From assembly GCA_023421675.1 (NCBI GenBank), contig JAEZTC010000001.1, positions 31,388 through 95,387 on the forward strand: a stretch of DNA of 64,000 nucleotides, in the 5' to 3' direction. The notes under the pieces are model-generated. The model saw only the letters and a program-made list of their open reading frames with translations, did no database searches and was not told the origin of the DNA. The translations under genes were made by a program, and so were the position numbers. The stretch comes from Bacillota bacterium. GTDB lineage: Bacteria > Bacillota > Clostridia > Acetivibrionales > JANLFN01. Of the stretch, positions 11,484-35,902 are shown piece after piece; within the stretch, counting starts at the first letter, position 1; each line of letters opens with the position of its first letter.

Positions 11484-11674
11484 TACATTTTAAACTTAAG
11501 TACAATAAGCAGGTTAAGCTACATATTTAATTTTTAAAAAATTGTTTATTGTTATTGGGTTTAAACAGAAATACAAGTTTTAATTTGCGAGATTATCAAA
11601 ATTACTTTGTTTAATTACCACTATAATTGGGCAAGAATAATTGAGATGCTACTCGAAAAGGGAGGTACGAATAA

Positions 11675-12265
11675 ATGAGCAGCTTGGTTCCGGTAGTCGT
11701 TGAACAAACCAACCGTGGAGAACGGTCGTATGATATCTATTCAAGATTGTTAAAGGATAGAATAATTCTTCTCAGTGATGAGGTAAATGATGTAACAGCC
11801 AGCCTGGTAGTAGCGCAGATGCTTTTCCTTGAGGCTGAGGATCCTGATAAGGATATCCTGTTATATATCAACAGCCCTGGAGGTTCTATAACATCAGGTT
11901 TTGCAATTTTTGATACCATGCAGTATGTTAAATGTGATGTATCAACTATATGTATAGGTATGGCTGCAAGTATGGGTTCATTCCTTCTTGCTGCAGGTGC
12001 AAAGGGAAAACGTTTTGCACTGCCTAACAGTGAAATAATGATTCACCAGCCATGGACCGGCGGAATTGGCGGACAGGTAACAGATGTTAAAATCCGTGCA
12101 GAATGGCTGATAAAGACTAAACAGAAATTGAACAGGATTTACAGCGAAAAAACAGGTCAGCCTCTTGAAAAGATAGAAAAGGATATGGAAAGAGATTTCT
12201 TCATGTCAGCTGAAGAAGCAAAGGCTTACGGCCTTGTTGATGAGATTATGACAAGAAGAAGTTAA
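11675..12265 (+). CDS. clpP: ATP-dependent Clp protease proteolytic subunit
   Basis: [25 protein letters not shown] (catalytic Ser), IMIHQP (His). Confidence 0.97.
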
Positions 12266-20007: not shown

Positions 20008-20847
20008 ATGAGCAGAACCATTGATTTACATACACACTCGACAGCATCGGACGGGAGCTTCAGCCCGGGGGAACTTGTAAGGCATGCATGGGAAAATGGA
20101 CTTAGTGCGGTTGCACTTACTGACCATGACACCGTATCGGGTATTGAAGAAGCACTGGAAATGGGCAAAGCCCTTGGAATAGAAGTAATCCCTGGTATTG
20201 AAATAGGACTGGAGTTTAAGCCTGAAATGCATATGCTGGGATATTTCTTTAATAACTCCTATAAAAAAATAGGCAAGGTTCTGGACCGGCTTCTTAATAG
20301 CAGGGAGGAGAGGAACCCCAGAATTATTGCAAAGCTTAATGAGTTGGGCTTTAACATTACAATGGGTGATGTAAGGCACAATGCCGGCGGCAGTATAATA
20401 GGAAGGCCTCACATAGCAAAAGCCCTGGTTGATAAAGGCTATGTCAAGGATAATAATGAGGCATTTGAAAAATACCTGGCAAGTGGTAAACCTGCTTATT
20501 TTCCAAAGGACAAACTGACCCCTGCTGAAGGTATAGGTGAAATACTTGAGGCTGGCGGAATACCTGTTTTAGCCCATCCGATATATCTTGGAATGGATTA
20601 TTCCCGCCTTGACGGATTGCTTGCTGATATGAAGAAAGCAGGTCTAAAGGGAATAGAAGCATATTATACTGAGAATAGGTATGAGGATACAGGAAATCTA
20701 TTAAGATTTGCAATAAAGCATGAACTTATTCCTACAGGAGGAAGCGATTTTCATGGAAGCTTTAAGCCTGATATTGAGATAGGCAAAGGAAGAGGAAATT
20801 TACATGTCCCATATGAGGTGCTTGAAAGTTTGAAAAAAGTTAAATAA
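20008..20847 (+). CDS. PHP-domain phosphoesterase (TrpH/YcdX-like)
   Basis: IDLHTHSTASDGS...ALTDHDT PHP signature. ATG 20008 follows a GAAGAGG RBS; the tracked ORF starts 15 nt earlier at TTG. Confidence 0.85.
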   Translation: MSRTIDLHTHSTASDGSFSPGELVRHAWENGLSAVALTDHDTVSGIEEALEMGKALGIEVIPGIEIGLEFKPEMHMLGYFFNNSYKKIGKVLDRLLNSREERNPRIIAKLNELGFNITMGDVRHNAGGSIIGRPHIAKALVDKGYVKDNNEAFEKYLASGKPAYFPKDKLTPAEGIGEILEAGGIPVLAHPIYLGMDYSRLDGLLADMKKAGLKGIEAYYTENRYEDTGNLLRFAIKHELIPTGGSDFHGSFKPDIEIGKGRGNLHVPYEVLESLKKVK

Positions 20848-21395: not shown

Positions 21396-21860
21396 ATGTC
21401 AGGCGAAGGTATTAAAATAGTTGCTCAAAACAAAAAAGCTAGGCACGATTACTTTATTGAAGATACTCTTGAAGCAGGCATAGTGCTTTCAGGTACCGAG
21501 GTCAAGTCTATAAGACAGGGCAAGGTTAATTTGAAGGATAGCTATGCAATGATAGAAGACGGTGAAGTAATCTTAAGCGGTATGCACATAAGTCCTTATG
21601 AGCAGGGCAACATATTTAACAAGGATCCTTTGAGGGACCGCAAGCTGCTGCTTCATAAGTACGAGATAAACAAGCTTATCGGTTACACACAGCAGAAAGG
21701 CCTCACAATAGTTCCTCTACAGCTGTATTTTACACGAGGAAAGGTAAAACTGCAGCTTGGAATAGCTAAAGGTAAAAAGCTCTACGACAAACGCGACGAC
21801 ATAGCGGAAAGAGATGCGAAGCGCAATATAGACAGAATGATGAAGGAACAGAGTAGGTAA
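21396..21860 (+). CDS. smpB: SsrA-binding protein
   Basis: 154 aa. SmpB signature ([30 protein letters not shown]). Immediately upstream of tmRNA. Confidence 0.95.
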
Positions 21861-21890
21861 TTGAGAATTGAGAATGGAGAATTGAGAATT
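21859..21890. repeat. left 32-nt inverted repeat (tandem GAGAATT heptamers) flanking the four-helix-bundle gene
   Basis: AATTGAGAATTGAGAATGGAGAATTGAGAATT. Complementary at 29/32 positions to 22301-22332. Confidence 0.85.
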
Positions 21891-21937
21891 ATTTTAAATT
21901 CATTTTTAGTTCTAGATTATTTATAAAGGGATGCATA

Positions 21938-22297
21938 ATGAAGGATAATGTTATTGTTACTAAAACCTTCAGGTTTGCAGTAAAAGTTGTAGAATGCTAT
22001 AAGATGTTGTGTAATACAAGTAAGGAGTATGTATTGTCTAAACAACTTCTTAGTTCAGGTACCAGTATAGGGGCAAATGTGAGGGAAGCGGTACAGGCTC
22101 AAAGTAAAAAGGATTTTGTTTCAAAAATGTCTATCTCTCTTAAGGAAGCTTATGAGACTCAATATTGGATTGAGTTGCTGAAAGAGACAGAGTACATTGA
22201 TAACCAAATAGCAAGCGAATTAATTGATCAATTGGATGAGATTATAAGAATTCTTAGTTCTATTATCAAATCATCAAAGGATAATAAGCAGAAGTAG
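21938..22297 (+). CDS. four-helix-bundle protein (TIGR02436 / 23S rRNA intervening-sequence protein family)
   Basis: 119 aa. Family-typical sequence FRFAVKVVECYK...SKQLLSSGTSIGANVREAQ...SKKDFVSKMSISLKEAYETQYWIELL. RBS is AAAGGGA. Confidence 0.8.
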   Translation: MKDNVIVTKTFRFAVKVVECYKMLCNTSKEYVLSKQLLSSGTSIGANVREAVQAQSKKDFVSKMSISLKEAYETQYWIELLKETEYIDNQIASELIDQLDEIIRILSSIIKSSKDNKQK

Positions 22298-22300
22298 TTC

Positions 22301-22332
22301 TAATTCTCAATTCTCAATTGTCAATTTTCAAT
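22301..22332. repeat. right 32-nt inverted repeat (AATTCTC heptamers), partner of 21859-21890
   Basis: AATTCTCAATTCTCAATTGTCAATTTTCAATT. Starts 4 nt after the stop codon and ends 10 nt before the tmRNA 5' end. Confidence 0.85.
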
Positions 22333-22341
22333 TATATTTTT

Positions 22342-22732
22342 GGGGGCGTATTGGTTTCGACGGGATTGTTGAGACTTGGGTAGCGGGTAGAGGATTCTCG
22401 TTGGCCTCTTAAAAAACGAGAAACTAAAATTAAACGCTAAAAATAATAACAATTATTCATTAGCTTTAGCAGCTTAATACTGCTAACCGTCAGTCCAGGG
22501 TTCCTGCACCTTGGGTAGCTGGCGTCATTAAGTCAGGCCTTCGGCATAGGAAGGTTAAATGCTGGAACTTTTGCAGCGGTAGCCTTGAGCTGTAATCGTA
22601 TTTAAAGGATACTGAAAGTGTAATCCTGCCTGTGGGAGTGCACCGTAGGGAATGTAAAAATGCAGGATACACCCGTAGAAGCTCTTGTGGATATGGTTTC
22701 GGACAGGGGTTCGACACCCCTCGCCTCCACCA
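22342..22732 (+). ncRNA. ssrA: transfer-messenger RNA (tmRNA, 10Sa RNA)
   Basis: 5' GGGGGCGTATTGGTTTCGACGGG and 3' GGACAGGGGTTCGACACCCCTCGCCTCCACCA. Internal tag reading frame GCT AAA AAT AAT AAC AAT TAT TCA TTA GCT TTA GCA GCT TAA gives AKNNNNYSLALAA. Follows smpB. Confidence 0.95.
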
Positions 22733-22741
22733 AAATGAAAA

Positions 22742-22770
22742 GTATCACCATCAGGTGATGCTTTTTTATT
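22742..22770 (+). terminator. rho-independent terminator of ssrA
   Basis: GTATCACC-atca-GGTGATGC stem followed by TTTTTTATTTT. Confidence 0.8.
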
Positions 22771-22806
22771 TTGCATAGAATCGGAAGGGGTGTCGAACCT
22801 AGCGGC
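22763..22806. repeat. left boundary direct repeat (DR-L) of the ssrA-adjacent island
   Basis: TTTTTATTTTGCATAGAATCGGAAGGGGTGTCGAACCTAGCGGC. The 3' 28-mer is identical to 34807-34834. Begins in the terminator T-tract. Confidence 0.8.
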
Positions 22807-22813
22807 TTGGAGC

Positions 22814-22929
22814 GTAAAGGAAACGTGCTGAATGCACGTTTTTAGCGACAAGTGAGGAGACAGGACCCGCCAGCGGGTGGCGACTCGGAAGTATGCGAGC
22901 ACAGCGAAGCAGACGGTCGACTCTGAGCC
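22814..22929 (+). repeat. ~115-nt conserved element, copy 1 (possible structured RNA)
   Basis: About 93% identical to 23576-23690. Internal hairpins ACGTGC-tgaat-GCACGT and ACCCGC-ca-GCGGGT. Copy 1 is followed by an AAGCCGCT/AGCGGCTT terminator-like hairpin. Confidence 0.6.
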
Positions 22930-23078
22930 TGAGCCAAATAAAGCCGCTGATGAAGCGGCTTTTGCCATAATGGTTAATATAAGCCTGATTAATGAAAGTA
23001 AGTTTCGTGCAATATGGATTTGTGGTAGTTACTTATTTAGTGGATATAGTTTAGTCAAGGGAATCCTATTTCTTGATA

Positions 23079-23225
23079 TTAATCATCTTCGCCGTAACCA
23101 TATTGAGTATTCTTATATCCGCAATACTTACATCTAACATAAGCATATTCATTATCACCATCTTCCCAGGGAAGGGTCAATTCCCCGCCAGACAATGATT
23201 GTCCACAATTTTCACATGTATCCAT
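23079..23225 (-). CDS. 48-aa zinc-ribbon protein (not in the ORF track, below 60 aa)
   Basis: Minus strand reads MDTCENCGQSLSGGELTLPWEDGDNEYAYVRCKYCGYKNTQYGYGEDD*. Two CxxC pairs. Strong RBS AAGGAGGTG 6 nt upstream. Confidence 0.55.
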   Translation of the reverse strand: MDTCENCGQSLSGGELTLPWEDGDNEYAYVRCKYCGYKNTQYGYGEDD

Positions 23226-23575
23226 TAGTGCACCTCCTTAGCTTATCCATTCTCAACAAAATCAATATTATATTAATGTTATGTTATGGAAACTCATAAG
23301 TCAAGTCGATCAACAAAATAGGCGCTGTCATCAGATATTGGAAATTTTCCTATCAACATTTGAACTATGTAGGATAACAAAGTAGTAATCATAAAAAAGT
23401 AATGCAAGGGAAGGGATGAGAAAGAGCCTTCGAGGGGTAATCGCTAAAAAAATTTGGGTAGACATTAGATAGACAATTCTACTTTAAAACTCCAAAATAG
23501 GACATGATATTGCATAATACTGGAAGGTAAAAGATGGGATACCAATTTCCTTGGGATACCTTGTTTTAAGGGATA

Positions 23576-23690
23576 GTAAGGGAAACGTGCTGAATGCACG
23601 TTTTCAGCGATAAGTGAGGAGCCAGGACCCGCCAGCGGGTGGCGACTCGGAAGTATGCGAGTGAAGCGAGCAGACGGTCGACTCTGAGCC
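23576..23690 (+). repeat. ~115-nt conserved element, copy 2
   Basis: Direct-orientation near-identical copy of 22814-22929. Lies about 340 nt upstream of the HD-GHKL gene. Confidence 0.6.
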
Positions 23691-24032
23691 TCTACCAAGC
23701 AAAACCTCGATAGAAGTATAAGTTGCATACTCCATGGCTTTTGTTATTTGTAATCGCATGATGGGTGTAGGGGACTTCAATCAAATTGGTAAATAAAAAT
23801 ATTATAATTAAAAACTTTTGATATTAGTATATTGAGAAAGTTACCTACCTTATTATGTCAGTAACCATGCTTTATGACATAAGGGTAACTATCGTATAAT
23901 ATTAAATACAGAGATTTTTTCGAAAAGATACAATATTCTTGAAAAACAGGGCGGAAGTTGATAAAAATTGTTATTATATGTATAATTATTGCTAATATTA
24001 CTTTTAACTTATGTGGGGGGAATTATAAAATA

Positions 24033-26876
24033 ATGGATTCCATAGAAATACCTAAACGATTTGAAAAAAAATTAGAGAGTGATCCTGATTATTGTGTTAT
24101 TGTTAAGGAAATAATTCGCAGGTTTTCACCTATTATTAAAGATAATAAATTAGAATTTTTTCCTGAGTACACTGATCATGGGTTCTTACATATAAATAAT
24201 ACTTTACAGCTTGCTGATAGGATAATTCCAGATGAAACATATAATAAATTAAATACTTTAGACATAAGCATGATTATATTATCTGTTTTTTTGCATGACT
24301 TAGGAATGCATATTACATATGAATTTTTTATTGAATTAATTCAAGGAAAGTCTAAAAATTGTATTGATACGAGGGTTGACAATAAAACATGGGATATTTT
24401 ATGGGATGAGTTTTTTGCAGAAGCTAAGCTTTGGAGCGCAAAAAAACGCCAGTCTTTATTTAAGGATGACTTTGAAATTAAGCAACCTCCTATTAAAAGG
24501 GGAGAAGCAACAGAGAATGATAAGAAGTTTATTGGAGAATTTTTGAGGAAATATCACTCAAGACTAGCATACGAAATATGCATTTTTGGATTTCTGCAAG
24601 TTGATGGATCTAGAATGGAGCTTTCTGACAATTTAGACAATAAGCAAAAAGTATTATTAGGACTTATTGCAAGGAGTCATGGCTTAAATTTGTGGGATGT
24701 TTTTCAATACATTGAGAATGAATTTGGAAGGGAACAAATTCGATCACCCAAAAATGTTCATGCAATTTATATTATGGTTGTTTTAAGAATATCAGACTAT
24801 TTTGATATGGATAAAAGTAGGGCTAATACGCCTATTCTGAAATTTAGAAAAATAAATAGTAGTATTTCGGAATTAGAGTGGGAAAAGCATAAGGCAGTTG
24901 ATTATATAGCAATGGAATTTCAAGATGATCCAGAATCAATTTTTGTGTATATTAATGAAATTGCGCAGAGTAAAGTATACTTAGGTATAAATGACTTGTT
25001 GAAAAACATGCAAAGTGAGCTAGATACATGTTGGGCAGTTTTGGGTAAAGTATATGGGGCATATGAGAATTTACAACTTTCTTTTAGGAGAATACATTCA
25101 AATTTGGACAATAAAGATGTGTTCTTAAAGAAAGTAAAATTTGTTCCGGAAAGAATTAAATTTGATTCCAATCCAGATATTTTAAAACTCTTAATACAAC
25201 CTTTATATGGGCATAACCCAGCATATGGAATAAGAGAACTTTTGCAAAATGCTATAGATGCTTGTGTAGAAAAGGAAAAGGTTTATTCTGAAAAGTATAC
25301 ACCTAACATCATAATAACTATTGATCAAGAGTGTTTAACTGTAGAAGATAATGGTATAGGGATGAATAAAGATATATTGATAAATTACTTCCTTGTAGCA
25401 GGAGCTTCATTTAGAAATAGTGATGTATGGAAAAAGACCTATTGTTTAAATGATAAATCTACTATACCAAGAAGTGGAAGATTTGGTGTGGGTGTTTTTG
25501 CTAGTTTTCTTATTGGAAATGAAATTTCAGTTGAAACTTATAGGATGGGTGAAGATATAGGGTATAAATTTGACGCTAATATTGATACAGATCAAATTGA
25601 AGTGATAAAAGTGATTCCTGATGGAAAGAAATCTGGTACCAAAATTAAGATTAAACTAGATAAAATAGTTCTGGAAGAATTGAAAAACCAATTTGAAAAC
25701 AGTACTGATGAAATAAATTGGAGAAATTGGTATTTTGGGGACAACCCAAAACTTATAATAAATGTGCCAGACGGATGGGTGAAGGGGAGGGACAATGATG
25801 AAATAAAGGTTAGTTTATACAATGATAAGCTTGAGTCTTATTGGAAATCAATAAAGCCAGAGGGATATCATAGAGTTGATTGGACGTATAAATCATATAA
25901 TATGCTTATTTGTAATGGGATAATTATTCGAAATGGGTATAGTGCATATAGATTCATGAGATACAGGTTTCCGGAGAGCTTTTTGCAACCTTTAGTTTCA
26001 GTTGTAGACAGTGATGCTAACTTACCTTTAAATCTTGATAGAAATGGCATAAGCAACAATAGGCTTCCTTTCGAAACAGATCTTGTAAAAGACATCTATA
26101 CCGATATTATAGCAAAACTAATAATGTCAAATGATATTACCGAACTAAATGAGGAAAAGTTAATAATAAAAGAAACAAATCTTTTACACCCAGCAATAAG
26201 TCCGAGAGATTATTCGTATCGTGTTTTCGATTCTTCTGATTATCTCTTAACAAAAAAAGGATTTAATTTGTGCCATTACTATAGCTTGGAAAAACTAGAC
26301 GTTAAGCTTATTAATCGAATGTGGGTAAAAAGTGATACTCAACAAATAGATGATAAAGAATTTATCTCTAAGATTGACCATTTGATTGTAACTAAAGGTA
26401 GAATTTCTTCTATACAACAATATAAACAATGCATAGATTTAAATTATGCAATTAATCTTGGGAAGGCATATGATTTATCAAACATTCGGGCCTATATTAA
26501 AAAGGTCGAATTTAATTATATATTTGAAGAAAACAAAAATAGAATGCGTGCTGGATTTGAAAATAATATTGTTATAGAAAGTGAAAGTAACAATTGGTAC
26601 TGTATAACCTATGGAGATGTACCTAGTCCAAAGCTTGATATTGAATATTTGGAAAGGAATAGTAATAATATTAATCTATTTGTAGAATATTATTATAAAC
26701 TTACAACACAAGAGAAACGTCTTCAAGAACAATATTATTATAGATATGATGAAACTACTTTGTTTGAAGAGTTATTGACAAAGTATATGGGGGAAGATAT
26801 TTATATACCATACGATATTGGTACCAGAATGATTAAATATGATAAGCTAGTAAAAGAGATAAATAATGAGGTATAA
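24033..26876 (+). CDS. HD-phosphohydrolase / GHKL (Hsp90-MORC-like HATPase) fusion protein, candidate defence protein
   Basis: N-terminal HD motifs (DHGFLHINN; FLHDLGMH). Central Bergerat ATPase motifs: N-box ELLQNAIDA, G1 VEDNGIGM, G2 GRFGVGVFASF. The reading frame opens at 23958 with an I-rich AT-junk extension. Strikingly AT-rich codon usage. Confidence 0.75.
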   Translation: MDSIEIPKRFEKKLESDPDYCVIVKEIIRRFSPIIKDNKLEFFPEYTDHGFLHINNTLQLADRIIPDETYNKLNTLDISMIILSVFLHDLGMHITYEFFIELIQGKSKNCIDTRVDNKTWDILWDEFFAEAKLWSAKKRQSLFKDDFEIKQPPIKRGEATENDKKFIGEFLRKYHSRLAYEICIFGFLQVDGSRMELSDNLDNKQKVLLGLIARSHGLNLWDVFQYIENEFGREQIRSPKNVHAIYIMVVLRISDYFDMDKSRANTPILKFRKINSSISELEWEKHKAVDYIAMEFQDDPESIFVYINEIAQSKVYLGINDLLKNMQSELDTCWAVLGKVYGAYENLQLSFRRIHSNLDNKDVFLKKVKFVPERIKFDSNPDILKLLIQPLYGHNPAYGIRELLQNAIDACVEKEKVYSEKYTPNIIITIDQECLTVEDNGIGMNKDILINYFLVAGASFRNSDVWKKTYCLNDKSTIPRSGRFGVGVFASFLIGNEISVETYRMGEDIGYKFDANIDTDQIEVIKVIPDGKKSGTKIKIKLDKIVLEELKNQFENSTDEINWRNWYFGDNPKLIINVPDGWVKGRDNDEIKVSLYNDKLESYWKSIKPEGYHRVDWTYKSYNMLICNGIIIRNGYSAYRFMRYRFPESFLQPLVSVVDSDANLPLNLDRNGISNNRLPFETDLVKDIYTDIIAKLIMSNDITELNEEKLIIKETNLLHPAISPRDYSYRVFDSSDYLLTKKGFNLCHYYSLEKLDVKLINRMWVKSDTQQIDDKEFISKIDHLIVTKGRISSIQQYKQCIDLNYAINLGKAYDLSNIRAYIKKVEFNYIFEENKNRMRAGFENNIVIESESNNWYCITYGDVPSPKLDIEYLERNSNNINLFVEYYYKLTTQEKRLQEQYYYRYDETTLFEELLTKYMGEDIYIPYDIGTRMIKYDKLVKEINNEV

Positions 26877-27384: not shown

Positions 27385-28365
27385 TCAGTGTCCGCCTGAT
27401 TGAAGGTTCAACTGCCTGCTAATCCGTTCCTTTACCTGCGATAGAAAATTATCTGGTCCCAAAACTTTTACTACTGGTCCAAAACTTAAAATACGAATCA
27501 GTAGTTCGGTTTCATCTGCGGGGTCAAAGTTGATGCGGCAAGTGTAAGTATCTCGGTCTTTATCATACTCTGTCTGCCGTTCAAAAGATGCAAATTGAAG
27601 CATACAACGTTCTAATGCGTTACGTTCTTTTGAAATTTCTAAAACCACAGGTTCATTGTGGAAAGGTTCTTTATAAAGTGCATCCAAATCAACAAAAATA
27701 TCAAATTGGTTTTCTGATGGCATAACAGATTTTATGCGCCCAAGATTTAATGTAATCCGTTCAAGTTTGTTATGATGACGGTTGAATGCAGCGCACATGA
27801 GCCTGAATTTATCGTCGCGCGCCGAATAGCATATTTTATACGGATGATATTGCCGCTTGGTACGGCCACCCTTACTACTGCCATATTCGATAATCAGGGG
27901 CTGATGTGCTTTGCAAGCACCGAGAATAGCTTTAAATCGGGCAATATACCCGTCATCGTTGTAATCATCACCGTCAAGATGCTTGTCATATATATGAAAG
28001 TCATTCTGTTCATATAGTGGTTCGATATTATTCAGCGATTCATCTAATACCGTTAGTTGGCTGTCATTTAAAAACAATTTTATACGCCGATCATTAAGAA
28101 GTGCTTTTAACCATGATTTTTCAAGAGTAGTTAAAGGCCTCTTTGTTTCACTGTTGAATTTTGTGAAATATTTTTTGTCCCTTTCCGCAAGTAAACTCCA
28201 TTCACTGGAAAAGAGTGAAGGCAGCAGATGAAAAGCTGTATCATAAAAGCCGTATCCGGAAACAAGTTGTTCAATCTCGGATTTAGATAAGCCGTTCTGG
28301 GCTTGCTCCAAAATTTTAGCCACAACAGTGAAATAGCATCCATAAATTTCGGAAAACAATTCCAT
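27385..28365 (-). CDS. WYL-domain protein (downstream gene of a tandem pair)
   Basis: WYL-like core PYKICYSARDDKFRLMCAAFNRHHNKLERITLNLGRIKSV. AGGAGGTG RBS 6 nt before ATG 28365. Start overlaps the upstream stop codon (TGATG). Confidence 0.7.
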   Translation of the reverse strand: MELFSEIYGCYFTVVAKILEQAQNGLSKSEIEQLVSGYGFYDTAFHLLPSLFSSEWSLLAERDKKYFTKFNSETKRPLTTLEKSWLKALLNDRRIKLFLNDSQLTVLDESLNNIEPLYEQNDFHIYDKHLDGDDYNDDGYIARFKAILGACKAHQPLIIEYGSSKGGRTKRQYHPYKICYSARDDKFRLMCAAFNRHHNKLERITLNLGRIKSVMPSENQFDIFVDLDALYKEPFHNEPVVLEISKERNALERCMLQFASFERQTEYDKDRDTYTCRINFDPADETELLIRILSFGPVVKVLGPDNFLSQVKERISRQLNLQSGGH

Positions 28366-29600
28366 CACTGCTCACCTCCTATACTATACATCTCTGCCAT
28401 TTGGTTAATATCACTGTAAAAACGGTTGACAACAAGCTCGTTTGTCCCTTCAAGCGCGAGAATGCGGCCGGTGAATGTCTTAATCCATGGCGACATATCT
28501 GATGAGTCAAACATTTCCTTGGTGTATAGAAAAGTATTTGTGTCAAGATGCGTAAGTACACCGCCCTGACCCTCTCTCAAGATACGATGGATGATATATT
28601 GCTCACGTTTTTCATCAATGTACAGCTTCATGCATATAACTTCCTTACGGTGTTCACCGCCAAAGCTGACTCCCCAGACCTTATCTAGATTAGTACTTAG
28701 CTTTTCTTTGATTTCAGGAGCAAAATCAATTACAACATCAGGCACAACCGATTTAATATAATCCAAACGATAATTGAAAAAGCGGCGTTTTCGTAGCGAA
28801 TACATGCATGCATATCGGCGCCCGGTTGTCGCACTGACAAATATTTTCAGCGGCAATGCATGTGTGGTCGTGGTCTTTCCGCTTCTTTCGCTTTGATTTT
28901 CAAATACTACTGATTGATTTTTGTGAATAGCTGTAAGCAATTCAAGCAAAATACCGTCCTCAAGAGTGTATGCGATATAGTGATGTTTAAACGCAAATAG
29001 GTCATTTTCAGCATTTTCGTTATCCAAAATATAACTGCCAACTTCCCCGATTGGAGCAACTCCCTGAAAAAACTTGATTGCATCTAAGAATTCATGTGTT
29101 ATGTTGATAGTTTGCGGGGCGATACCGTAGAAAAATACTTTCCCTTGTTTTTCACAAGTCATCATGCCGATTCTTACATACTCATTGCACTTTCCACGGA
29201 CTGTCTGAGCATCAAAAGTGACACCACTTTTTTCGCAAATATAATCAGTAAGTGCATCCACGGCCATTTTTCTGCTTCTTAATGCGTCCAGAATATAAAA
29301 ATGCAGCATAATATCATTTGAAGTAAAACTTTTAGACTTCCATGCTGCGAACAATGGATTAACAGGAATTTTAGAACTGTCCACTGATATGAAGGAGGTT
29401 TTACTGCCATCTTTGTAATCCCATTTCATATATTTCTTGAGATAACTCTCACATCGACGTTTTTCATTATCATAGGTTCTGGCGGATTTTTTAGTGAAAT
29501 CATTGCGCGACTTGAAGCCATATACATAGAAATCTCGCATATAGTCTCGGATTTTATCAAATCTTTTTATCAGTTCTGAAAACTCTGCCATGCCCCTCAC
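28365..29600 (-). CDS. WYL-domain protein (upstream gene of a tandem pair)
   Basis: WYL-like core PLKIFVSATTGRRYACMYSLRKRRFFNYRLDYIKSV. Start is uncertain (GTG 29600 or ATG 29591). Divergent from rtcB. Confidence 0.65.
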   Translation of the reverse strand: MRGMAEFSELIKRFDKIRDYMRDFYVYGFKSRNDFTKKSARTYDNEKRRCESYLKKYMKWDYKDGSKTSFISVDSSKIPVNPLFAAWKSKSFTSNDIMLHFYILDALRSRKMAVDALTDYICEKSGVTFDAQTVRGKCNEYVRIGMMTCEKQGKVFFYGIAPQTINITHEFLDAIKFFQGVAPIGEVGSYILDNENAENDLFAFKHHYIAYTLEDGILLELLTAIHKNQSVVFENQSERSGKTTTTHALPLKIFVSATTGRRYACMYSLRKRRFFNYRLDYIKSVVPDVVIDFAPEIKEKLSTNLDKVWGVSFGGEHRKEVICMKLYIDEKREQYIIHRILREGQGGVLTHLDTNTFLYTKEMFDSSDMSPWIKTFTGRILALEGTNELVVNRFYSDINQMAEMYSIGGEQ

Positions 29601-29710
29601 CCAATAATATGATAATAATTATTCCTTAAAAAATCAACTTCGCAAACTTTTTTAAATGAAAGCAAAATAAGTTACTGGTAAAATTTAACCATAGAAAGGA
29701 GATGAATACA

Positions 29711-30943
29711 ATGTTTGTAATTTCAAACGAAAACACAAATGTACCTATTAAAATTTGGCTGTCAGATGAAAACAAAATTGAGGAAAGCTGTCTTGAACAG
29801 GCGTACCACCTCGCTAATCTGCCATTTTTACATAAATGGGTTTCATTAATGCCTGATACACATACGGGCATGGGAATGCCAATTGGTGGTGTAATTGCCA
29901 CAACCGGTGTAATAATTCCGAACGCTGTTGGTGTAGATATCGGATGTGGAATGGCTTTTGTCGGAACAGATATTAAGGTCGCTGAAATTCATGAAGTTAT
30001 GACCGGGAACGGTTCACTTCTTCAGGGCATTGTTGGAGACATCCTTCGCAATGTACCAGTCGGCTTTAATCATCATAAGAATATTCAAAGTTGCACCACT
30101 CTTGATGTTGCACTTGATAATATGGATAAATATGAAGCAAATACCGAGCTTGTAGGGCAAATTGATGCTGGCTATTATCAGATTGGGACACTTGGCGGGG
30201 GTAATCACTTTATTGAGTTACAGGAAGATAATGATGGCAATTTTGGTATAATGATTCACTCCGGCAGCCGTAATTTTGGTAAGCAAGTATGTGACTACTT
30301 CCACAAAGCCGCCCGTGATTTAAATCAAAAATGGTATTCAAAGATTCCTGATGAATGGCGGTTGGCATTTTTACCGGTTGATTCAAGTGAGGGTAAACAA
30401 TACATTAACTGGATGAATTTAGCGCTTGATTTTGCTGCTGAAAACCGTTCTAAAATGATGTATGCAGTACGTTCAATCATCGAAAAATGGATTGGCAAAT
30501 ATACGAATATTAGTTTTAACTATGCTGATGAAATAAACTGCCACCATAATTATGCTGCAATTGAACATCATTACGATAAAAATGTATGGGTTCACCGCAA
30601 AGGGGCGACCAGAGCACGACTTGGTGAAATCGCAGTTATTCCAGGTGCAATGGGTTCCTATAGCTATGTGGTTGAAGGTTTAGGGAATGAAATGAGCTTC
30701 TGCTCGTCTTCACACGGGGCAGGTCGTCAATATTCACGCAAAGTTGCAATGCAGAATTTTTCTACTGAACAGGTCATGGTCGATTTGAAAGAGCAGGGTG
30801 TTATTCTCGGGAAGCAAAACAAAGAAGACGTGGCGGAAGAAAGTCGCTTTGCATATAAGGATATAGATGTTGTAATGGAAAATCAACAGGATTTGGTTAA
30901 GCCAATCAAAAAGTTAAAGACTATAGGTGTGGTCAAAGGTTAG
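29711..30943 (+). CDS. rtcB: RNA-splicing ligase RtcB (3'-phosphate/5'-OH RNA ligase)
   Basis: RtcB motifs PDTHTGMGMPIGGV, NAVGVDIGCGM, GGGNHFIEL and the catalytic His in SSHGAGR. AGGAG RBS 9 nt upstream of ATG 29711. Confidence 0.9.
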   Translation: MFVISNENTNVPIKIWLSDENKIEESCLEQAYHLANLPFLHKWVSLMPDTHTGMGMPIGGVIATTGVIIPNAVGVDIGCGMAFVGTDIKVAEIHEVMTGNGSLLQGIVGDILRNVPVGFNHHKNIQSCTTLDVALDNMDKYEANTELVGQIDAGYYQIGTLGGGNHFIELQEDNDGNFGIMIHSGSRNFGKQVCDYFHKAARDLNQKWYSKIPDEWRLAFLPVDSSEGKQYINWMNLALDFAAENRSKMMYAVRSIIEKWIGKYTNISFNYADEINCHHNYAAIEHHYDKNVWVHRKGATRARLGEIAVIPGAMGSYSYVVEGLGNEMSFCSSSHGAGRQYSRKVAMQNFSTEQVMVDLKEQGVILGKQNKEDVAEESRFAYKDIDVVMENQQDLVKPIKKLKTIGVVKG

Positions 30944-32891: not shown

Positions 32892-33614
32892 ATGAAAATT
32901 AAGCAGGTATGCGATAGTACAGGTCTGTCTGAACGCACGATACGCTTTTATATTGAGAAAGGGCTTATACAGCCTCAAAGCTGTGAACAGAATCGGCGTA
33001 CATACTATGAGTTTGGAGAAGATGATGTTCGACAAACCGAGCAGATTGCAATACTACGGAAAATAGGCTTTTCCATTGCCGAAATTCTAACTATGAAAAA
33101 TGAACCTGAGTGCATTGGTTCCATTATAGAAGAACACCTGATTTCGTTGGAGGAGAGTGCAAGAAAACAGGCTGAAGCCTTGACAGCAGTACAAAATGCT
33201 GTTGGCAGTCAATACCCCAGCCTGTCAGCGCTATGTGCCGTACTTACTGAAAGCGCTGAACATCTTGAATTACCGCAACGTGATGTATGGCCGCATTTCG
33301 CTCAATTTGATGAGGAAACACCCGAGGAGCGCGAAAAATCCTACCAGAGTTTTTTAGACCGGCATAACCGGAAGGAGAAAAGACTCAAGTGGCTGAAACC
33401 CGCTCTGCTTTCCCTGTGCGCGGCTGCACTTATTTTCGGGGTAGTCATTGGTGTCAGCTACATACCTCGCCATATTCAAAGAGAGTTTTTGGGAAGTGAG
33501 TTGGAGATGGCGGTGAAGGTTCAAAACTACTTAAAAAAACGGATATTCATATCGAAGGATGGTTATATGGAGGATTGTTTACAACGCCAAGCTTCAAGGG
33601 GGTATTTGAACTGA
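32892..33614 (+). CDS. MerR-family transcriptional regulator with C-terminal transmembrane anchor
   Basis: N-terminal MerR HTH (MKIKQVCDSTGLSERTIRFYIEKGLI). Predicted TM helix LKPALLSLCAAALIFGVVIGV. Confidence 0.8.
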   Translation: MKIKQVCDSTGLSERTIRFYIEKGLIQPQSCEQNRRTYYEFGEDDVRQTEQIAILRKIGFSIAEILTMKNEPECIGSIIEEHLISLEESARKQAEALTAVQNAVGSQYPSLSALCAVLTESAEHLELPQRDVWPHFAQFDEETPEEREKSYQSFLDRHNRKEKRLKWLKPALLSLCAAALIFGVVIGVSYIPRHIQREFLGSELEMAVKVQNYLKKRIFISKDGYMEDCLQRQASRGYLN

Positions 33615-33940
33615 GCACATATCCGTTTACACACGATACTCAGGTTGAAATACCCTTTCTACATGATAAAGGGGATGTATGTCCAATTGTTTATTGTTAT
33701 TATAAGGATGGTTTACCGCATACAAGTAGTTTGGGAATGCTTTATACCGATAGCAATTTTCGTTCAGTAGCTATCCAGCTATTCGATAAGAAGAAAAACG
33801 GTGACGGAATCGAAAGCGGCTCAATAGGAAACCGTGTCATTGCTGCTCCGGCAAGTGATTTGCAAATGGCTTCTTCAGTCTTGGATGAACGTAATATCTA
33901 CTGGATGGATTTCAAAGGCGTATACCATTATCCAAGATAA
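33575..33940 (+). CDS. hypothetical protein (overlaps the MerR gene 3' end; start uncertain)
   Basis: 121-aa tracked ORF. No recognisable motifs and no clear RBS. Confidence 0.3.
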   Translation: MFTTPSFKGVFELSTYPFTHDTQVEIPFLHDKGDVCPIVYCYYKDGLPHTSSLGMLYTDSNFRSVAIQLFDKKKNGDGIESGSIGNRVIAAPASDLQMASSVLDERNIYWMDFKGVYHYPR

Positions 33941-34061: not shown

Positions 34062-34409
34062 ATGAATGTACATCATTATGAAACAAGGGGAGGCAAAGAC
34101 ATAATCCTTGAGTATATTGACGAGCTTCCCAAAAATGAAAAAGCAGAGGGGTTAACAATTCTTGAAAAACTTGAGGATGAAGGATTCGCAGCACTTGATG
34201 TACTAAATACGAGACAACTCAGGGCAAAGCTCTGGGAAATCAAGTTTTATGATAATAATAGGATTATGTATGTTATAGCAGACGGGGAAAATATGTATTT
34301 GGTTCATGTTTGTAAAAAGCAGAAGGGTAAAGCTGAAAGGTTTGAATTGGATAAAGCAATAAAAAGAGTCAGGGAACTGGAAACGGAACTGGGCAAGAGA
34401 TTTATTTGA
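34062..34409 (+). CDS. type II toxin, RelE/ParE superfamily (HigB / Gp49-like, DUF891-type)
   Basis: LRAKLWEIKFYDNNRIMYVIADGENMYLVHVCKKQKGKAE matches the Gp49/HigB-like killer fold pattern. Followed 22 nt later by an XRE-HTH gene. RBS is CAGGAGAAA. Confidence 0.65.
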   Translation: MNVHHYETRGGKDIILEYIDELPKNEKAEGLTILEKLEDEGFAALDVLNTRQLRAKLWEIKFYDNNRIMYVIADGENMYLVHVCKKQKGKAERFELDKAIKRVRELETELGKRFI

Positions 34410-34430
34410 ATGAATGAGAGGTGAATACCC

Positions 34431-34745
34431 ATGCCGTTTAAAAAAGTCAATGTTAAGGAAGAAATCAACAAAAGGCTGGAAAATGACGTAGAACTTAAGA
34501 AAGCATATGCTAATGCACAGCATGAGTATGAAGTTATCAAGCAGCTTGTAAAAATAAGAAATGAAATGGGTTTTTCCCAAAGTGATGTTGCAAGGCAGTC
34601 CGGATTGACACAGCAGATGGTTTCCAGGATTGAAACCGTAGATAACTCCCCCACGCTCAGGAACTTTATAAAGTATGTAGACAGCCTGGGCTTGGAAATC
34701 AGGATTGAGAAAAAGGATGCAAAAATGGAGTGCGGAAAGGTGTAG
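34431..34745 (+). CDS. HTH XRE-family antitoxin (HigA-like)
   Basis: HTH segment LVKIRNEMGFSQSDVARQSGLTQQMVSRIE. RBS is GAGAGGTGA. Confidence 0.7.
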   Translation: MPFKKVNVKEEINKRLENDVELKKAYANAQHEYEVIKQLVKIRNEMGFSQSDVARQSGLTQQMVSRIETVDNSPTLRNFIKYVDSLGLEIRIEKKDAKMECGKV

Positions 34746-34768: not shown

Positions 34769-34800
34769 GAACAGGGTGAACCTGTTCTCTTTTTATTTTG
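34769..34800 (+). terminator. rho-independent terminator after the TA pair
   Basis: GAACAGG-gtgaa-CCTGTTC stem followed by TCTTTTTATTTT. Confidence 0.8.
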
Positions 34801-34834
34801 TATGGAAATCGGAAGGGGTGTCGAACCTAGCGGC
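34787..34834. repeat. right boundary direct repeat (DR-R) of the island
   Basis: CTCTTTTTATTTTGTATGGAAATCGGAAGGGGTGTCGAACCTAGCGGC. The 28-mer is identical to DR-L. Also begins in a terminator T-tract. Confidence 0.8.
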
Positions 34835-35066
34835 AAGAAAAGAATTTTAAGCTTTTAAACAATAAAGTCATGAAACAGAGTCTTATAAATAACCTTTATC
34901 ATTATGTTAAAAATAAATAGCTTTACCGTTATATGGTGAAAAGTTGTATCTTTTAGAGCGAATGGGCAAAAAATGAATAAAATCATTCTAAAATAGTCCA
35001 TATTAATCCTTGAATCATACTCGAGTATGGAATAGTATATATATAACCATTTAATGGGAGGGCGCT

Positions 35067-35192
35067 ATGCAACAAATTACATTTTTAATAGCTTATATTC
35101 TGGGTCTTGCCTTAAATATTGCAATTGTATATTTTATTGTTAAACTTATTATACGTTACCTAGAGAAGGTAAGAAGTAGTAAAGCAAAATAA
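35067..35192 (+). CDS. 41-aa hydrophobic peptide (type-I-toxin-like; not in the ORF track)
   Basis: MQQITFLIAYILGLALNIAIVYFIVKLIIRYLEKVRSSKAK. One TM helix plus a basic tail. Strong RBS GGGAGGG 5 nt upstream. Confidence 0.45.
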   Translation: MQQITFLIAYILGLALNIAIVYFIVKLIIRYLEKVRSSKAK

Positions 35193-35256
35193 TACTTTAT
35201 TCTGTAAATATTGACATTATTTGCTTATGGGTGTATTATATTTACAAAAAGCAGAA

Positions 35257-35302
35257 ACCTCCTAGATTAAAATTCTTTTGCGGAGATCCCTTAATCTAGG
35301 AG
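35257..35302. repeat. perfect 13-bp inverted repeat with 20-nt spacer
   Basis: CCTCCTAGATTAA (35257-69) and TTAATCTAGGAGG (35290-302). No T-tract follows. Confidence 0.7.
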
Positions 35303-35902
35303 GTAACACCCCTTCCAATAATTGAAAGGTAATTCTATTATATACCTTATTTTTGGCAAATTTTAATCATGCTTTTTGGCAAATAAGATTCCCTAGAAGA
35401 TTAATAATAACACACAATGGTCAAAACATTTAGGTCTTAGGGGTCTTCCACCCCCCAAACCCCTGGAAAACCAATACAAGGCATTAAAGAAAATCATTTA
35501 ATATCTTTGTTTAAATTAATTGCCAGTTTTATAACGAAAGTTATTTACCAAACCGATGAACTTCCTGTCTCATTTGAAAAACGGGAACCCCGACGACTTA
35601 GAATACAGAAAGCTACTTGTTATAGCGTCTATATTTACATCAACGATAATGGAGGCCATAATGCAACCGTAATATTCAATGTGGGCAACCAGCCGCCCAT
35701 ACATGTGGATGTGTCTCTATTGGATGAAATACAGGGCAATAGTGGTTCTTATGCGTCCCTGTTGCCTCCACAATACTAGAAAACCAAGTGCTTCAGATAA
35801 ACTGAGATGCTTGGTTTCTTATTTTGTCCGGTTTTAAAGGAATATAGATTCGAATATAAATTAAGGTCTGAACCCGTGCCCGGAATCAGACCTTTGATAA
35901 CA

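What the first reader, a model, noticed from the sequence alone, without database searches (positions are those of the whole stretch)
22814..23690. Pair of ~115-nt, ~93% identical direct repeats flanking a small zinc-ribbon gene at the island entry
Sequence: 22814-22929 and 23576-23690 are near-identical in the same orientation. They share the internal hairpins ACGTGC-tgaat-GCACGT and ACCCGC-ca-GCGGGT. Copy 1 is followed by a terminator-like hairpin (AAGCCGCT-gatga-AGCGGCTT). Between the copies, on the minus strand, lies a 48-aa CxxC...CxxC protein with an excellent RBS. The minus-strand ORFs overlapping the copies are spurious. The elements do not convincingly match any riboswitch or intron-domain consensus known to me. 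A GTATGCG string resembles group II domain V but has no complementary strand. Possibilities: a structured sRNA family, an omega/guide-like RNA of a lost transposon, or LTR-like ends of a mini-element.
Basis: seen in the sequence. Interest (0 to 1): 0.55.

Follow-up and report, generated by a model that had tools for sequence, protein, structure and literature searches.

The report
Repeated junction relic beside the tmRNA gene
The two repeats are real, but they are most likely leftover junction sequences from foreign DNA inserted repeatedly next to the tmRNA gene, in a fast-changing stretch that holds phage-defence genes, and not a new RNA gene.

Summary
22809-22945 (X1) and 23571-23706 (X2) are direct repeats, 93% identical over 117 nt. 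They are GC-rich (57-58% against 34% for the spacer) and bracket a real 48-aa zinc-ribbon gene.

X1 starts 77 nt after the tmRNA gene (ssrA, 22342-22732). Other strains of this uncultured Bacillota species carry completely different cargo downstream of ssrA: Thoeris, FRG/AIPR, a methylase/helicase island, or almost nothing. X copies occur only in this region. They always point the same way as ssrA and always sit at boundaries between cargo modules. Some copies are truncated or decayed, and two strains lack the X core near ssrA.

The best-preserved copies end in an ssrA-3'-end-like GGTCGAC...CTCCACCAA. Downstream of that point each copy differs, and several have their own distinct terminator. 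In other strains X belongs to a longer repeated unit: damaged ssrA 3' end, ssrA terminator, "flank A", then X.

I found no Rfam match, no covariation, no conserved promoter and no copies elsewhere. One sister species is the only other carrier.

Best reading: X is a junction relic of serial insertions at ssrA and now serves only as homology for recombination. This is a new example of a known kind, of modest interest. Where the X body came from is unresolved.

The parts
22342..22732 (+). tmRNA gene (ssrA). This is the intron-less allele, with T-loop TTCGACA. It anchors the whole variable region.
   Evidence: Rfam RF00023, 184.3 bits, E=1.7e-73. ARAGORN reports tag peptide AKNNNNYSLALAA.
22737..22766 (+). 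ssrA intrinsic terminator. It is copied, together with the elements that follow it, at distal sites in other strains.
   Evidence: Terminator scan: 13-bp stem plus T run. The same sequence follows displaced ssrA 3' remnants at L001 16055-16141, L002 13337-13423 and L005 15313-15399.
22763..22806 (+). "Flank A", a repeated ssrA-downstream segment. It contains AGGGGTGTCGAACC (22786-22799), a perfect 14-nt inverted copy of the ssrA T-arm. It is the left copy of a ~48-nt direct repeat whose right copy lies at 34783-34837.
   Evidence: the repeat finder I10. BLAST matches 22763-22806 to 34790-34834 at 93%. nhmmer finds copies in L001, L002, L005, L013, L033 and L037.
22809..22945 (+). X1, repeat copy 1. 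It consists of a hairpin module (22821-22841), the core palindrome ACCCGC-CA-GCGGGT (22865-22878) and a tail GGTCGACTCTGAGCCTGAGCCAAAT (22915-22939). The tail corresponds to the ssrA-3'-end-like tail of better-preserved copies.
   Evidence: GC content is 57%.
22941..22963 (.). GC-rich hairpin plus T run just after X1. It may be a bidirectional terminator. Under the relic model it is the terminator that once followed an ssrA 3' end.
   Evidence: Sequence reading. A different hairpin plus T run follows the X copies L013a and L013b.
23079..23225 (-). 48-aa zinc-ribbon gene (CENC...CKYC) with a GGAGG ribosome-binding site. It is an orphan small gene of mobile-element type and the only cargo between X1 and X2.
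   Evidence: Translation. 36 homologous clusters. Homologues sit among small ORFs next to NERD, HNH and IS110 genes. No X-like DNA lies near those homologues.
23571..23706 (+). X2, repeat copy 2. It has no flank A upstream. Its tail is GGTCGACTCTGAGCCTCTACCAAG (23676-23699).
   Evidence: GC content is 58%.
23958..26876 (+). Next cargo module: a promoter-like site (23958-23986, 11 of 12 matches) and a 947-aa HD-CE plus HATPase_c_3 gene (24033-26876). The promoter lies downstream of X2, so X2 is not this gene's leader.
   Evidence: Promoter scan. Pfam HD-CE 7.2e-43 and HATPase_c_3 2.8e-10.
34783..34837 (+). Flank A', the distal copy of flank A, directly after a HigB/HigA-like toxin-antitoxin pair. 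With 22763-22806 it brackets the ~12-kb segment that begins with X1.
   Evidence: BLAST and nhmmer. Sequence. In strain L005 the DNA that follows flank A' in the window (34838-35356) lies directly after the ssrA-proximal flank A.
35764..35775 (+). Right border of the variable region: GCCTCCACAA followed by TACTAG. It is a weak ssrA-3'-end-like remnant. In other strains a decayed X tail (GAGCTTTAACCAA then TACTAG) occupies the same position.
   Evidence: Sequences. Synteny breakpoint at 35771. The similarity to the ssrA 3' end is weak: 71 of 1000 shuffles score as well.

Best explanation
X1 and X2 are two members of a small, lineage-restricted family of non-coding junction repeats. The family has built up in the hypervariable cargo region immediately 3' of the tmRNA gene (ssrA).

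Foreign DNA has repeatedly entered at or near the ssrA T-loop and 3' end. Each incoming piece restores a working ssrA 3' end with its own terminator. It pushes the previous 3' end, and everything downstream of it, further away. Repeated rounds, followed by deletion, leave co-oriented copies of the same junction sequences between cargo modules. These sequences are the ssrA 3' remnant, the ssrA terminator, flank A and X.

X consists of a GC-rich body of unknown origin fused to a decayed ssrA-3'-end-like tail (GGTCGAC...CTCCACCAA).

In the window, X1 is the copy currently next to ssrA. X2 is an older copy, displaced by a module that has since decayed to 0.63 kb (a terminator plus an orphan zinc-ribbon gene).

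The copies are not genes. Their only likely present-day role is as direct-repeat homology for recombination that deletes, converts and shuffles the modules.

Shown here: the repeat family, its confinement to the ssrA hotspot, its position at module boundaries, the decayed and absent alleles, the clear displaced ssrA remnants in other strains, and the mosaic pattern among copies.

Inferred: the insertion history, the identification of the X tail as a former ssrA 3' end, and the recombination role.
For: 1. X1 begins 77 nt after the ssrA 3' end, following the ssrA terminator and flank A.

2. The region is a strain-variable hotspot. Contigs with the identical SmpB protein carry different cargo after ssrA: FRG plus AIPR (L001, L004), a 282-aa membrane protein (L002), HD-CE/HATPase (the window, L003), RCC1 plus Thoeris ThsA/ThsB (L005), and serine recombinase plus methylase, Vsr and helicase (L006). 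Contigs whose SmpB is 96-97% identical carry DUF4238/SEC-C (L037) or almost nothing (L035).

3. Every X copy found by BLAST or nhmmer lies in this region, on the ssrA strand, between modules. The copies are L001 12005-12100 and 16141-16214, L002 13423-13496, L005 15400-15530 and a partial at 20204-20247, and L013 4261-4346 and 736-791. None lies elsewhere in the 64-kb window or in the flanking 10-kb arms.

4. In L001, L002 and L005, X is the last part of a longer repeated unit. The unit begins with a damaged ssrA 3' end (GGTTCG^CCTCYACCAAAAT, missing 10 nt of the T-loop). That remnant matches the real 3' end better than any of 500 shuffles. The ssrA terminator and flank A follow it.

5. In the better-preserved copies the X tail resembles the ssrA 3' end. 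Shuffles scoring as well number 3 of 1000 for L005a, 40 of 1000 for L013a and 80 of 1000 for X2.

6. Beyond ...CCAA every copy continues into unrelated DNA. Three copies (X1, L013a, L013b) are followed within about 12 nt by different hairpin-plus-T-run terminators. Both ssrA alleles and the ancestral right border show the same arrangement.

7. At the right border of the hotspot, a decayed X tail in L005, L014 and L035 occupies the same position as a GCCTCCACAA remnant in the window.

8. Older copies are decaying. L001b is 82% identical, AT-shifted and 3'-truncated. L013b and L005b carry independent microhomology deletions at the same genomic position.

9. L035 and L037 show no X core within 10 kb downstream of smpB.

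10. Sites in the copies show all four allele combinations: CCCG[C/T] combined with GAG[CAC/TGA] in X1, X2, L005a and L004a. This indicates recombination or gene conversion among copies.

11. In the sister species, X is 96% identical to X1. The whole ssrA-intron-endonuclease-X block is 92.9% identical between species against 87% for the core genes, and the block ends exactly at the X tail. Transfer of the block explains the high conservation of X without requiring selection on X itself.

12. The principle is established: an island regenerates the tDNA, and a displaced fragment marks its far end. Tandem arrays occur, and the tmRNA gene is the most enriched integration target (PMC4383910).
Against: - No integrase is found in any ORF scanned between 22.9 and 35.8 kb of the window, nor in most other strains. 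The classical tyrosine-integrase mechanism is therefore not demonstrated. Only L006 and L041 carry a recombinase, and it is a large serine recombinase, which does not duplicate its target.
- The X body shows no significant similarity to this tmRNA, to the ssrA group I intron of sister strains, or to the endonuclease upstream region. Its origin is unexplained.
- The resemblance of the X tail to the ssrA 3' end is short and only modestly significant. It is absent in X1 itself.
- X is 57-58% GC in a 37% GC genome, contains three palindromes, and its substitutions are mostly compatible with G-U pairing. This is what a structured RNA or a protein-binding site would also look like.
- The 14-nt inverted T-arm in flank A is not explained by this model.
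Confidence: 0.58

Rival explanations
1. X is an active recombination site, not a passive scar. It could be an ssrA-3'-end mimic used as a secondary attachment site by integrases that target the CCA end of ssrA. Alternatively it could be the distal homology arm through which the T-loop group I intron and its free-standing LAGLIDADG endonuclease co-convert neighbouring cargo into intron-less alleles.
For: - Cargo differs immediately after ...CTCCACCAA in every copy.
- Serine-recombinase islands are inserted exactly after the CCACCA end of ssrA in L006 and L041.
- The block conserved between species (ssrA, intron, exon 2, terminator, LAGLIDADG gene, X) ends precisely at the X tail.
- Intron-bearing alleles always come with their own exon 2 and terminator.
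- The displaced ssrA remnants lack exactly the 10 nt around the intron insertion site.
Against: - No recombinase or endonuclease gene lies in the window.
- Serine integrases do not create target duplications.
- The ssrA-like tail of X is degenerate (X1: CCTGAGCCAA; X2: CCTCTACCAA).
- The older copies at the right border (L005b, L013b) are decaying.
- No binding, cleavage or excision evidence is obtainable with these tools.
Confidence: 0.15
2. X encodes a structured non-coding RNA on the plus strand, either an sRNA or a cis-acting leader or insulator carried by the cargo modules.
For: - GC content is 57-58% against 34% for the spacer.
- Two stable hairpins are shared by the copies.
- Most changes in the ACCCGC/GCGGGT stem give G-U pairs on the plus strand.
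- X1 and L013a are followed by terminators.
- Every X copy is followed by unrelated DNA, which in the window, L001 and L005 is plus-strand cargo.
Against: - No Rfam family matches at gathering score or at E<=10.
- RNAalifold gives only -13.5 kcal/mol over about 90 columns, with a covariation term of +0.41. One pair shows a double change and several pairs are broken.
- Copy 2 folds no better than shuffles (z = -0.6).
- No promoter-like site precedes X1, and the promoter of the next gene lies downstream of X2.
- Upstream sequences and terminators differ between copies.
- Copies are truncated at either end (L001a, L001b, L013b, L005b), and the X core is absent near ssrA in L035 and L037.
- X is found in only two sister species and nowhere in the viral, JGI metagenome, phage or plasmid collections.
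Confidence: 0.1
3. X is a protein-binding DNA region: an operator or regulatory platform for a transcription factor encoded in the hotspot (WYL pair, MerR, HigA/Xre), repeated in front of modules.
For: - X contains three palindromes: ACCCGC-CA-GCGGGT, CTCG-N8-CGAG and GTCGAC.
- In L001, L004 and L013, X lies just upstream of the divergent LAGLIDADG promoter region.
- Regulator genes are conserved in the hotspot.
Against: - The variant stems (ACCCGT...GTGGGT) break the DNA dyad symmetry.
- X1, L005a and L001b have no gene on the side where the endonuclease gene sits in L001a.
- Spacing to downstream genes varies from about 170 to over 450 nt, with independent promoters.
Confidence: 0.06
4. X1 and X2 are the ends or relics of a transposable mini-element (a MITE or an IS200/IS605-derived element whose end encodes an omega-type guide RNA), or the product of a recent local duplication.
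For: Two similar copies bracket a tiny module that carries one orphan gene of mobile-element type.
Against: - The copies are direct, not inverted.
- The flanks do not match and no transposase, TnpB or IscB is present.
- The copies are not dispersed. They occur only in the ssrA hotspot, and a scan of 185,579 genomes found one locus.
- The 7% divergence between copies far exceeds the 0.1-1.4% divergence between strains in flanking core DNA.
- Each copy is more similar in parts to copies in other strains. A recent local duplication is therefore excluded.
Confidence: 0.05

Closest known systems
Tandem or nested genomic islands at tRNA and tmRNA genes, marked by a regenerated gene and displaced 3' fragments (the Islander principle; PMC4383910)
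   Same: The location is the same, immediately 3' of an intact ssrA. Co-oriented repeats containing ssrA 3'-end sequence sit at module boundaries, and cargo differs between strains. Clear displaced ssrA 3' fragments are present in other strains (0 of 500 shuffles score as well). The tmRNA gene is the most enriched island target.
   Different: No integrase accompanies the modules. The repeated unit extends far beyond the ssrA fragment (terminator, flank A and about 90 nt of X body of unknown origin). The ssrA-like tail of X is degenerate. The modules are very small (0.6-5 kb) and appear in different orders in different strains.
Integrase-less defence hotspots between conserved core genes
   Same: The segment between conserved flanks (smpB-ssrA on one side, the SDR gene on the other) is hypervariable. 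It holds Thoeris, AIPR/FRG, restriction-modification-like genes and toxin-antitoxin genes in otherwise about 99% identical strains. The comparison with such hotspots rests on my own knowledge of the field, not on a paper read here.
   Different: Here the modules are punctuated by a recurring internal repeat family tied to a tmRNA gene. That points to site-directed insertion history as well as flanking homologous exchange.
Integron cassette arrays (attC sites)
   Same: Short, similar, co-oriented non-coding repeats of about 60-140 nt separate promoter-poor cargo modules next to a fixed entry point.
   Different: No IntI integrase is present. X is not a single imperfect palindrome with the R''-L''/L'-R' layout. 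Copies are truncated at different points, and modules carry their own promoters and lie in mixed gene orientations.
Group I intron in the tmRNA T-loop, and collaborative homing by an intron plus a free-standing homing endonuclease
   Same: Sister strains have an insert of about 270 nt in the ssrA T-loop. It matches RF00028 weakly but over the full model (21.7 bits, E=0.002) and contains the AAGATATAGTC motif. A LAGLIDADG gene lies just outside it, followed by X. Introns in tmRNA genes occur almost only in Bacillota (PMC13011429). The collaborative-homing comparison rests on my own knowledge.
   Different: The window itself has the intron-less allele and no endonuclease gene. X shows no sequence similarity to the intron. 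Any role of homing in spreading X or cargo is inferred only.

Membership tests
tDNA/tmRNA-gene genomic island array (Islander criteria) | An intact target gene (tmRNA) is regenerated at one end of the inserted DNA | tested here: met
   tmRNA at 22342-22732, 184 bits, full model. ARAGORN agrees.
tDNA/tmRNA-gene genomic island array (Islander criteria) | A displaced 3' fragment of the same gene lies in direct orientation at the far end of each island | tested here: inconclusive
   Clear in other strains: L001, L002 and L005 remnants match the ssrA 3' end better than all 500 shuffles. In the window only degenerate candidates exist. The X2 tail scores 80 of 1000, the X1 tail is not significant, and 35764-35775 scores 71 of 1000.
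tDNA/tmRNA-gene genomic island array (Islander criteria) | Each island carries its own integrase gene | tested here: not met
   No recombinase domain was found in the ORFs scanned between 22.9 and 35.8 kb. Only L006 and L041 have a large serine recombinase.
tDNA/tmRNA-gene genomic island array (Islander criteria) | Presence or absence of the inserted DNA varies among close relatives | tested here: met
   At least seven different cargo configurations occur among contigs whose SmpB is 96-100% identical to the window's. One of them is nearly empty (L035).
Structured non-coding RNA family | Match to a curated covariance model | tested here: not met
   Rfam 15 at gathering score over the window, and at E<=10 on 22700-23800 and on L005 15395-15545, returned only chance-level hits.
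Structured non-coding RNA family | Conserved secondary structure supported by compensatory changes | tested here: not met
   Seven distinct copies were folded together. The covariation term is +0.41, one pair shows a double change, and pairs are broken in 9 of 21 columns. Power is low because all copies come from two sister species.
Structured non-coding RNA family | An independent transcription unit (promoter and terminator) conserved with the element | tested here: not met
   No plus-strand promoter-like site lies upstream of X1. Upstream and downstream sequences differ between copies. Transcription itself cannot be tested here.
IS200/IS605-type or MITE-type element end (omega RNA, palindrome-associated element) | Association with tnpA, tnpB or iscB, or dispersed copies with element-like ends | tested here: not met
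   No such genes are nearby. Copies occur only in the ssrA hotspot. One locus was found in 185,579 genomes.
Integron attC site | A neighbouring IntI integrase, and a single imperfect-palindrome fold for each site | tested here: not met
   No integrase is present. The folds show several short hairpins, not one long bottom-strand hairpin.
Relic of the ssrA group I intron or of the tmRNA body | Detectable sequence similarity to the intron of sister strains or to the tmRNA upstream of the T-arm | tested here: not met
   X core against intron: 157 of 300 shuffles score as well. Flank A plus X against intron plus exon 2: z = 1.3. X body against tmRNA body: z <= 1.4. No RF00028 hit on X.

The most novel reading that the evidence does not exclude
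X, together with flank A, is the working distal arm of an undescribed integrase-less mobility system at ssrA. A group I intron in the T-loop and a free-standing LAGLIDADG endonuclease cut intron-less alleles. Repair then copies the intron, a new ssrA 3' end and adjacent defence cargo up to the next X. X acts as an ssrA-3'-end mimic that supplies the homology or landing site. This would give an integron-like cassette array driven by homing instead of an integrase.
Probability: 0.1. Interest if true: 0.7.

Novelty: new member of a known kind. Interest (0 to 1): 0.3.

Why it matters
This removes a candidate new RNA family from the list. It also documents a compact, well-resolved tmRNA-linked defence hotspot in an uncultured Clostridia-like lineage. 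There, module boundaries can be read from reiterated junction sequences even though the integrases are gone.

Such relic repeats are useful markers for reconstructing how defence islands are assembled and shuffled. They are also a caution: GC-rich, hairpin-bearing repeats next to tRNA or tmRNA genes are often insertion scars, not genes.

The polymorphic ssrA intron with an adjacent free-standing LAGLIDADG gene in sister strains is the more interesting lead. It could link homing to the turnover of cargo.

Tried and rejected
- **Rfam.** Searched at gathering score over the whole window and at E<=10 on both copies and on the best-preserved copy in L005. Nothing was found beyond the tmRNA.
- **Wider homologues.** BLAST against phage and plasmid collections found none. 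Two pattern scans of viral contigs and two of JGI metagenome contigs found none. One scan of 185,579 species genomes found a single locus in a sister species.
- **X as a decayed group I intron.** No significant similarity to the intron of sister strains.
- **X body as a decayed tmRNA 3' domain.** Only the last ~28 nt contributes signal.
- **X 5' part as homologous to the region upstream of the endonuclease gene.** It looked plausible by eye but is not significant.
- **Minus-strand ORFs over X as relics of the serine recombinase that overlaps ssrA in L041.** Only the tmRNA-antisense stretch matches.
- **X travelling with the zinc-ribbon gene.** Homologues of the gene in other taxa have no X-like DNA nearby.
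- **tRNA-like fold for X.** ARAGORN finds nothing, and I could not find a convincing acceptor pairing by hand.
- **Tn7-like end.** Considered because of the repeated GYCGACTC motif, but no transposition genes are present.
- **Covariation.** RNAalifold on seven variants gave no support.
Full report
**1. Observation**

The two copies exist as described. The repeat finder reports 22809-22907 against 23571-23669 at 91% over 99 nt. After a 1-nt indel the match continues as 22908-22945 against 23669-23706 at 84%. BLAST gives 93.2% over 117 nt for 22814-22930 against 23576-23691. A 37-nt core is identical in both copies and occurs nowhere else in the window, with 0 expected by chance.

The shared hairpins (22821-22841 and 22865-22878) and the hairpin after copy 1 (22941-22961) are present. 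The copies are 57-58% GC. The spacer is 34% and the window 37%.

The 48-aa zinc-ribbon ORF between them (23079-23225, minus strand) is a genuine conserved small protein, with 36 clusters at 67-85% identity. The minus-strand ORFs over the copies are spurious. One runs antisense through the tmRNA gene, and the copies differ by a frame-shifting indel.

**2.

Copy 1 (X1) starts 77 nt after a tmRNA gene (ssrA, 22342-22732, 184 bits). The order along the window is:
- smpB
- a 23S-IVP/bAvd-like gene
- ssrA and its terminator (22737-22766)
- a segment I call flank A (22763-22806), which contains a perfect 14-nt inverted copy of the T-arm
- X1 and a hairpin
- the zinc-ribbon gene (minus strand)
- X2
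- an HD-CE plus HATPase gene with its own promoter downstream of X2
- two WYL genes, RtcB, a Band 7 gene, a frameshifted MerR gene and a HigBA-like pair
- a second copy of flank A (34783-34837)
- the conserved SDR gene

**3. The region is a strain-variable hotspot**

Look-ups of the exact SmpB and SDR proteins, and of SmpB variants at 96-97% identity, returned contigs from the same and closely related uncultured Bacillota. Their core DNA is 98.7-100% identical to the window. Between ssrA and the SDR gene they carry entirely different cargo:
- FRG plus AIPR plus SF0329 (L001, L004)
- a membrane protein plus SF0329 (L002)
- the window's arrangement (L003, L011, L012)
- an RCC1-repeat protein plus Thoeris ThsA/TIR/ThsB (L005, L033, L034)
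- a large serine recombinase with methylase, Vsr, helicase and MZB (L006)
- DUF4238 and SEC-C proteins (L037)
- almost nothing, with ssrA followed directly by MerR (L035)

A further lineage has a serine-recombinase, primase and type I restriction-modification island inserted exactly at the CCA end of ssrA (L041-L043).

**4. X is a family confined to this hotspot**

BLAST and nhmmer against all fetched loci and the whole window find X only between ssrA and the SDR gene. It is always on the ssrA strand and always between modules. The copies are:
- L001 12005-12100, between a LAGLIDADG gene and FRG
- L001 16141-16214 and L002 13423-13496, before a flavodoxin gene
- L005 15400-15530, before ThsA
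- L005 20204-20247, a partial copy after MerR
- L013 and L039 (sister species), one copy next to the LAGLIDADG gene and one deleted copy at the right border

Left ends differ. Some copies are joined to flank A, some begin at AGCCARGA next to the endonuclease gene, and X2 stands alone. The right end is constant. In the best-preserved copies it reads GGTCGACTCTGAG(A/C)CTCCACCAA, and beyond it every copy continues into unrelated DNA.

X1, L013a and L013b are each followed within about 12 nt by a different hairpin plus T run. Both real ssrA alleles and the ancestral right border show the same arrangement.

**5. Link to ssrA 3' ends**

In L001, L002 and L005, X is the last element of a longer repeated unit. 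The unit starts with a damaged ssrA 3' end (GGTTCG^CCTCYACCAAAAT, lacking 10 nt of the T-loop). That remnant matches the true 3' end better than any of 500 shuffles. The ssrA terminator, flank A and X follow it. A further ~125-nt "pre" segment upstream of the remnant is shared by two different cargo sets and is not tmRNA-derived.

The X tail itself resembles the ssrA 3' end only modestly. Shuffles scoring as well number 3 of 1000 for L005a, 40 of 1000 for L013a and 80 of 1000 for X2. X1 is not significant.

At the right border of the hotspot, a decayed X tail in L005, L014 and L035 occupies the same position as GCCTCCACAA in the window. That window remnant is itself weak (71 of 1000).

The established island principle is that the incoming element regenerates the tDNA while a displaced fragment marks the far end. 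Tandem arrays occur, and the tmRNA gene is the most enriched target (PMC4383910). This accounts for the pattern.

**6. Evidence that X is not a gene or a conserved functional RNA**

- No Rfam family matches.
- RNAalifold on seven distinct copies gives -13.5 kcal/mol with a positive covariation term and several broken pairs.
- Copy 2 folds no better than shuffles (z = -0.6). Copy 1 reaches z = -2.2 only when its terminator is included.
- No promoter-like site precedes X1, and the next gene's promoter lies downstream of X2.
- Older copies are AT-shifted, truncated or carry independent microhomology deletions at the same genomic position (L001b, L005b, L013b).
- L035 and L037 show no X core within 10 kb downstream of smpB.
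- X is absent from the phage, plasmid, viral-contig and JGI metagenome collections. It was found in one other species among 185,579.
- That sister-species copy is 96% identical to X1. The whole ssrA-intron-endonuclease-X block is 92.9% identical between species against 87% for the core, and it ends exactly at the X tail. Transfer of the block explains the conservation.
- Allele combinations among copies show all four types, indicating recombination among copies.

**7. What remains unexplained**

The ~90-nt GC-rich X body has no detectable similarity to the tmRNA body, to the intron, or to the region upstream of the endonuclease gene.

No integrase accompanies the modules in the window. The insertion mechanism is therefore inferred. 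Candidates are integrases that have since been lost, homing-associated gene conversion, or homologous exchange.

The inverted T-arm in flank A is also unexplained.

**8. Mechanism and verdict**

My best-supported reading (about 0.58) is as follows. X1 and X2 are junction relics of serial insertions at ssrA. X1 belongs to the present ssrA-proximal flank. X2 was displaced by a module now reduced to a terminator plus an orphan zinc-ribbon gene of mobile-element type. Today the copies act at most as direct-repeat homology for deleting and shuffling modules.

The rivals are:
- an active recombination or homing site (0.15)
- a structured RNA (0.10)
- a regulatory DNA platform (0.06)
- a transposon end or local duplication (0.05)

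This is a new example of a known kind of structure, a tmRNA-gene island array and defence hotspot. Interest is modest (0.3). The most novel reading not excluded is a homing-driven cassette system in which X is the distal arm (probability about 0.1).

Noticed in passing
L001 11199-11466, also L002, L004, L006, L013, L035, L037 and L039 (not in the window): Many strains carry an insert of about 270 nt (longer in L035 and L037) in the ssrA T-loop. It is followed by a fresh TCCCCTCGCCTCCACCA end and a different terminator. It matches Rfam Intron_gpI over the full model but below threshold (21.7 bits, E=0.002) and contains AAGATATAGTC. The window, L005, L033 and L034 have intron-less alleles, so the intron is polymorphic within the species. 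ARAGORN fails to call the interrupted gene in L039.
   Followed up: partly
L001 11521-11928 (minus strand), L013 4405-4833, L039 11650-12057; remnants at L002 ~11500-11590 and L035 ~11640-11730: A free-standing single-domain LAGLIDADG gene of 135-142 aa (Pfam 23.4 bits against a cut-off of 23.1) lies just outside the ssrA intron, after exon 2 and its terminator, on the opposite strand. It is degraded to a 3' stub in other intron-bearing strains. This looks like a collaborative-homing arrangement going through a decay cycle.
   Followed up: partly
window 22786-22799 against 22708-22721: Flank A contains AGGGGTGTCGAACC, a perfect 14-nt inverted copy of the ssrA T-arm, 64 nt downstream of it. It is conserved in most flank A copies. 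No model I considered explains it.
   Followed up: partly
window 21858-21891 and 22301-22334, around the ORF at 21938-22297: The 23S-rRNA-IVP/bAvd-like gene between smpB and ssrA is bracketed by 34-nt inverted repeats made of GAGAATT-like heptads (91% complementary). Other strains carry a 115-bp internal deletion (window 21986-22100 missing), and the gene call is absent in L037. It may be a small insertion of its own.
   Followed up: no
L006 2836-4594 and L041 11331-12896: Large serine recombinase islands are inserted exactly after the CCACCA end of ssrA. One carries methylase, Vsr, helicase and MZB genes; the other carries primase and type I restriction-modification genes. In L041 the recombinase ORF, as called, runs on antisense through the last ~180 nt of ssrA. 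The window ORF 22555-22968 shares that antisense stretch and the same stop position.
   Followed up: partly
window 24033-26876: A 947-aa protein has an HD-CE domain (7e-43) and an HSP90/MORC-type HATPase_c_3 domain. It sits in a defence hotspot but has no PADLOC match, so it is a candidate uncharacterised defence gene.
   Followed up: no
window 27385-30943: Two adjacent WYL-domain genes are divergently paired with an RtcB RNA ligase gene. This block is shared by most strains but missing in the Thoeris-type strains. It may be a WYL-regulated RNA-repair module inside the hotspot.
   Followed up: no
window 32892-33940: The MerR-family gene is split into 240-aa and 121-aa ORFs in the window and in L015. 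It is an intact 349-aa gene in other strains. This is a likely frameshift pseudogene or a sequencing error.
   Followed up: no
window 34062-34745: A Gp49/HigB-like toxin and an HTH_3/HigA-like antitoxin pair lie directly before flank A'. They are present in some strains (L015, L020, L021, L023) and absent in others (L014, L016-L018).
   Followed up: no
L001 15920-16049, L002 13202-13331, L005 15166-15311: An AT-rich "pre" segment of about 125 nt lies immediately upstream of the displaced ssrA remnant. It is homologous between two different cargo sets (alignment score 71 against a shuffle maximum of 37) and is absent from the window. It may be the conserved right arm of another insertion family.
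   Followed up: partly
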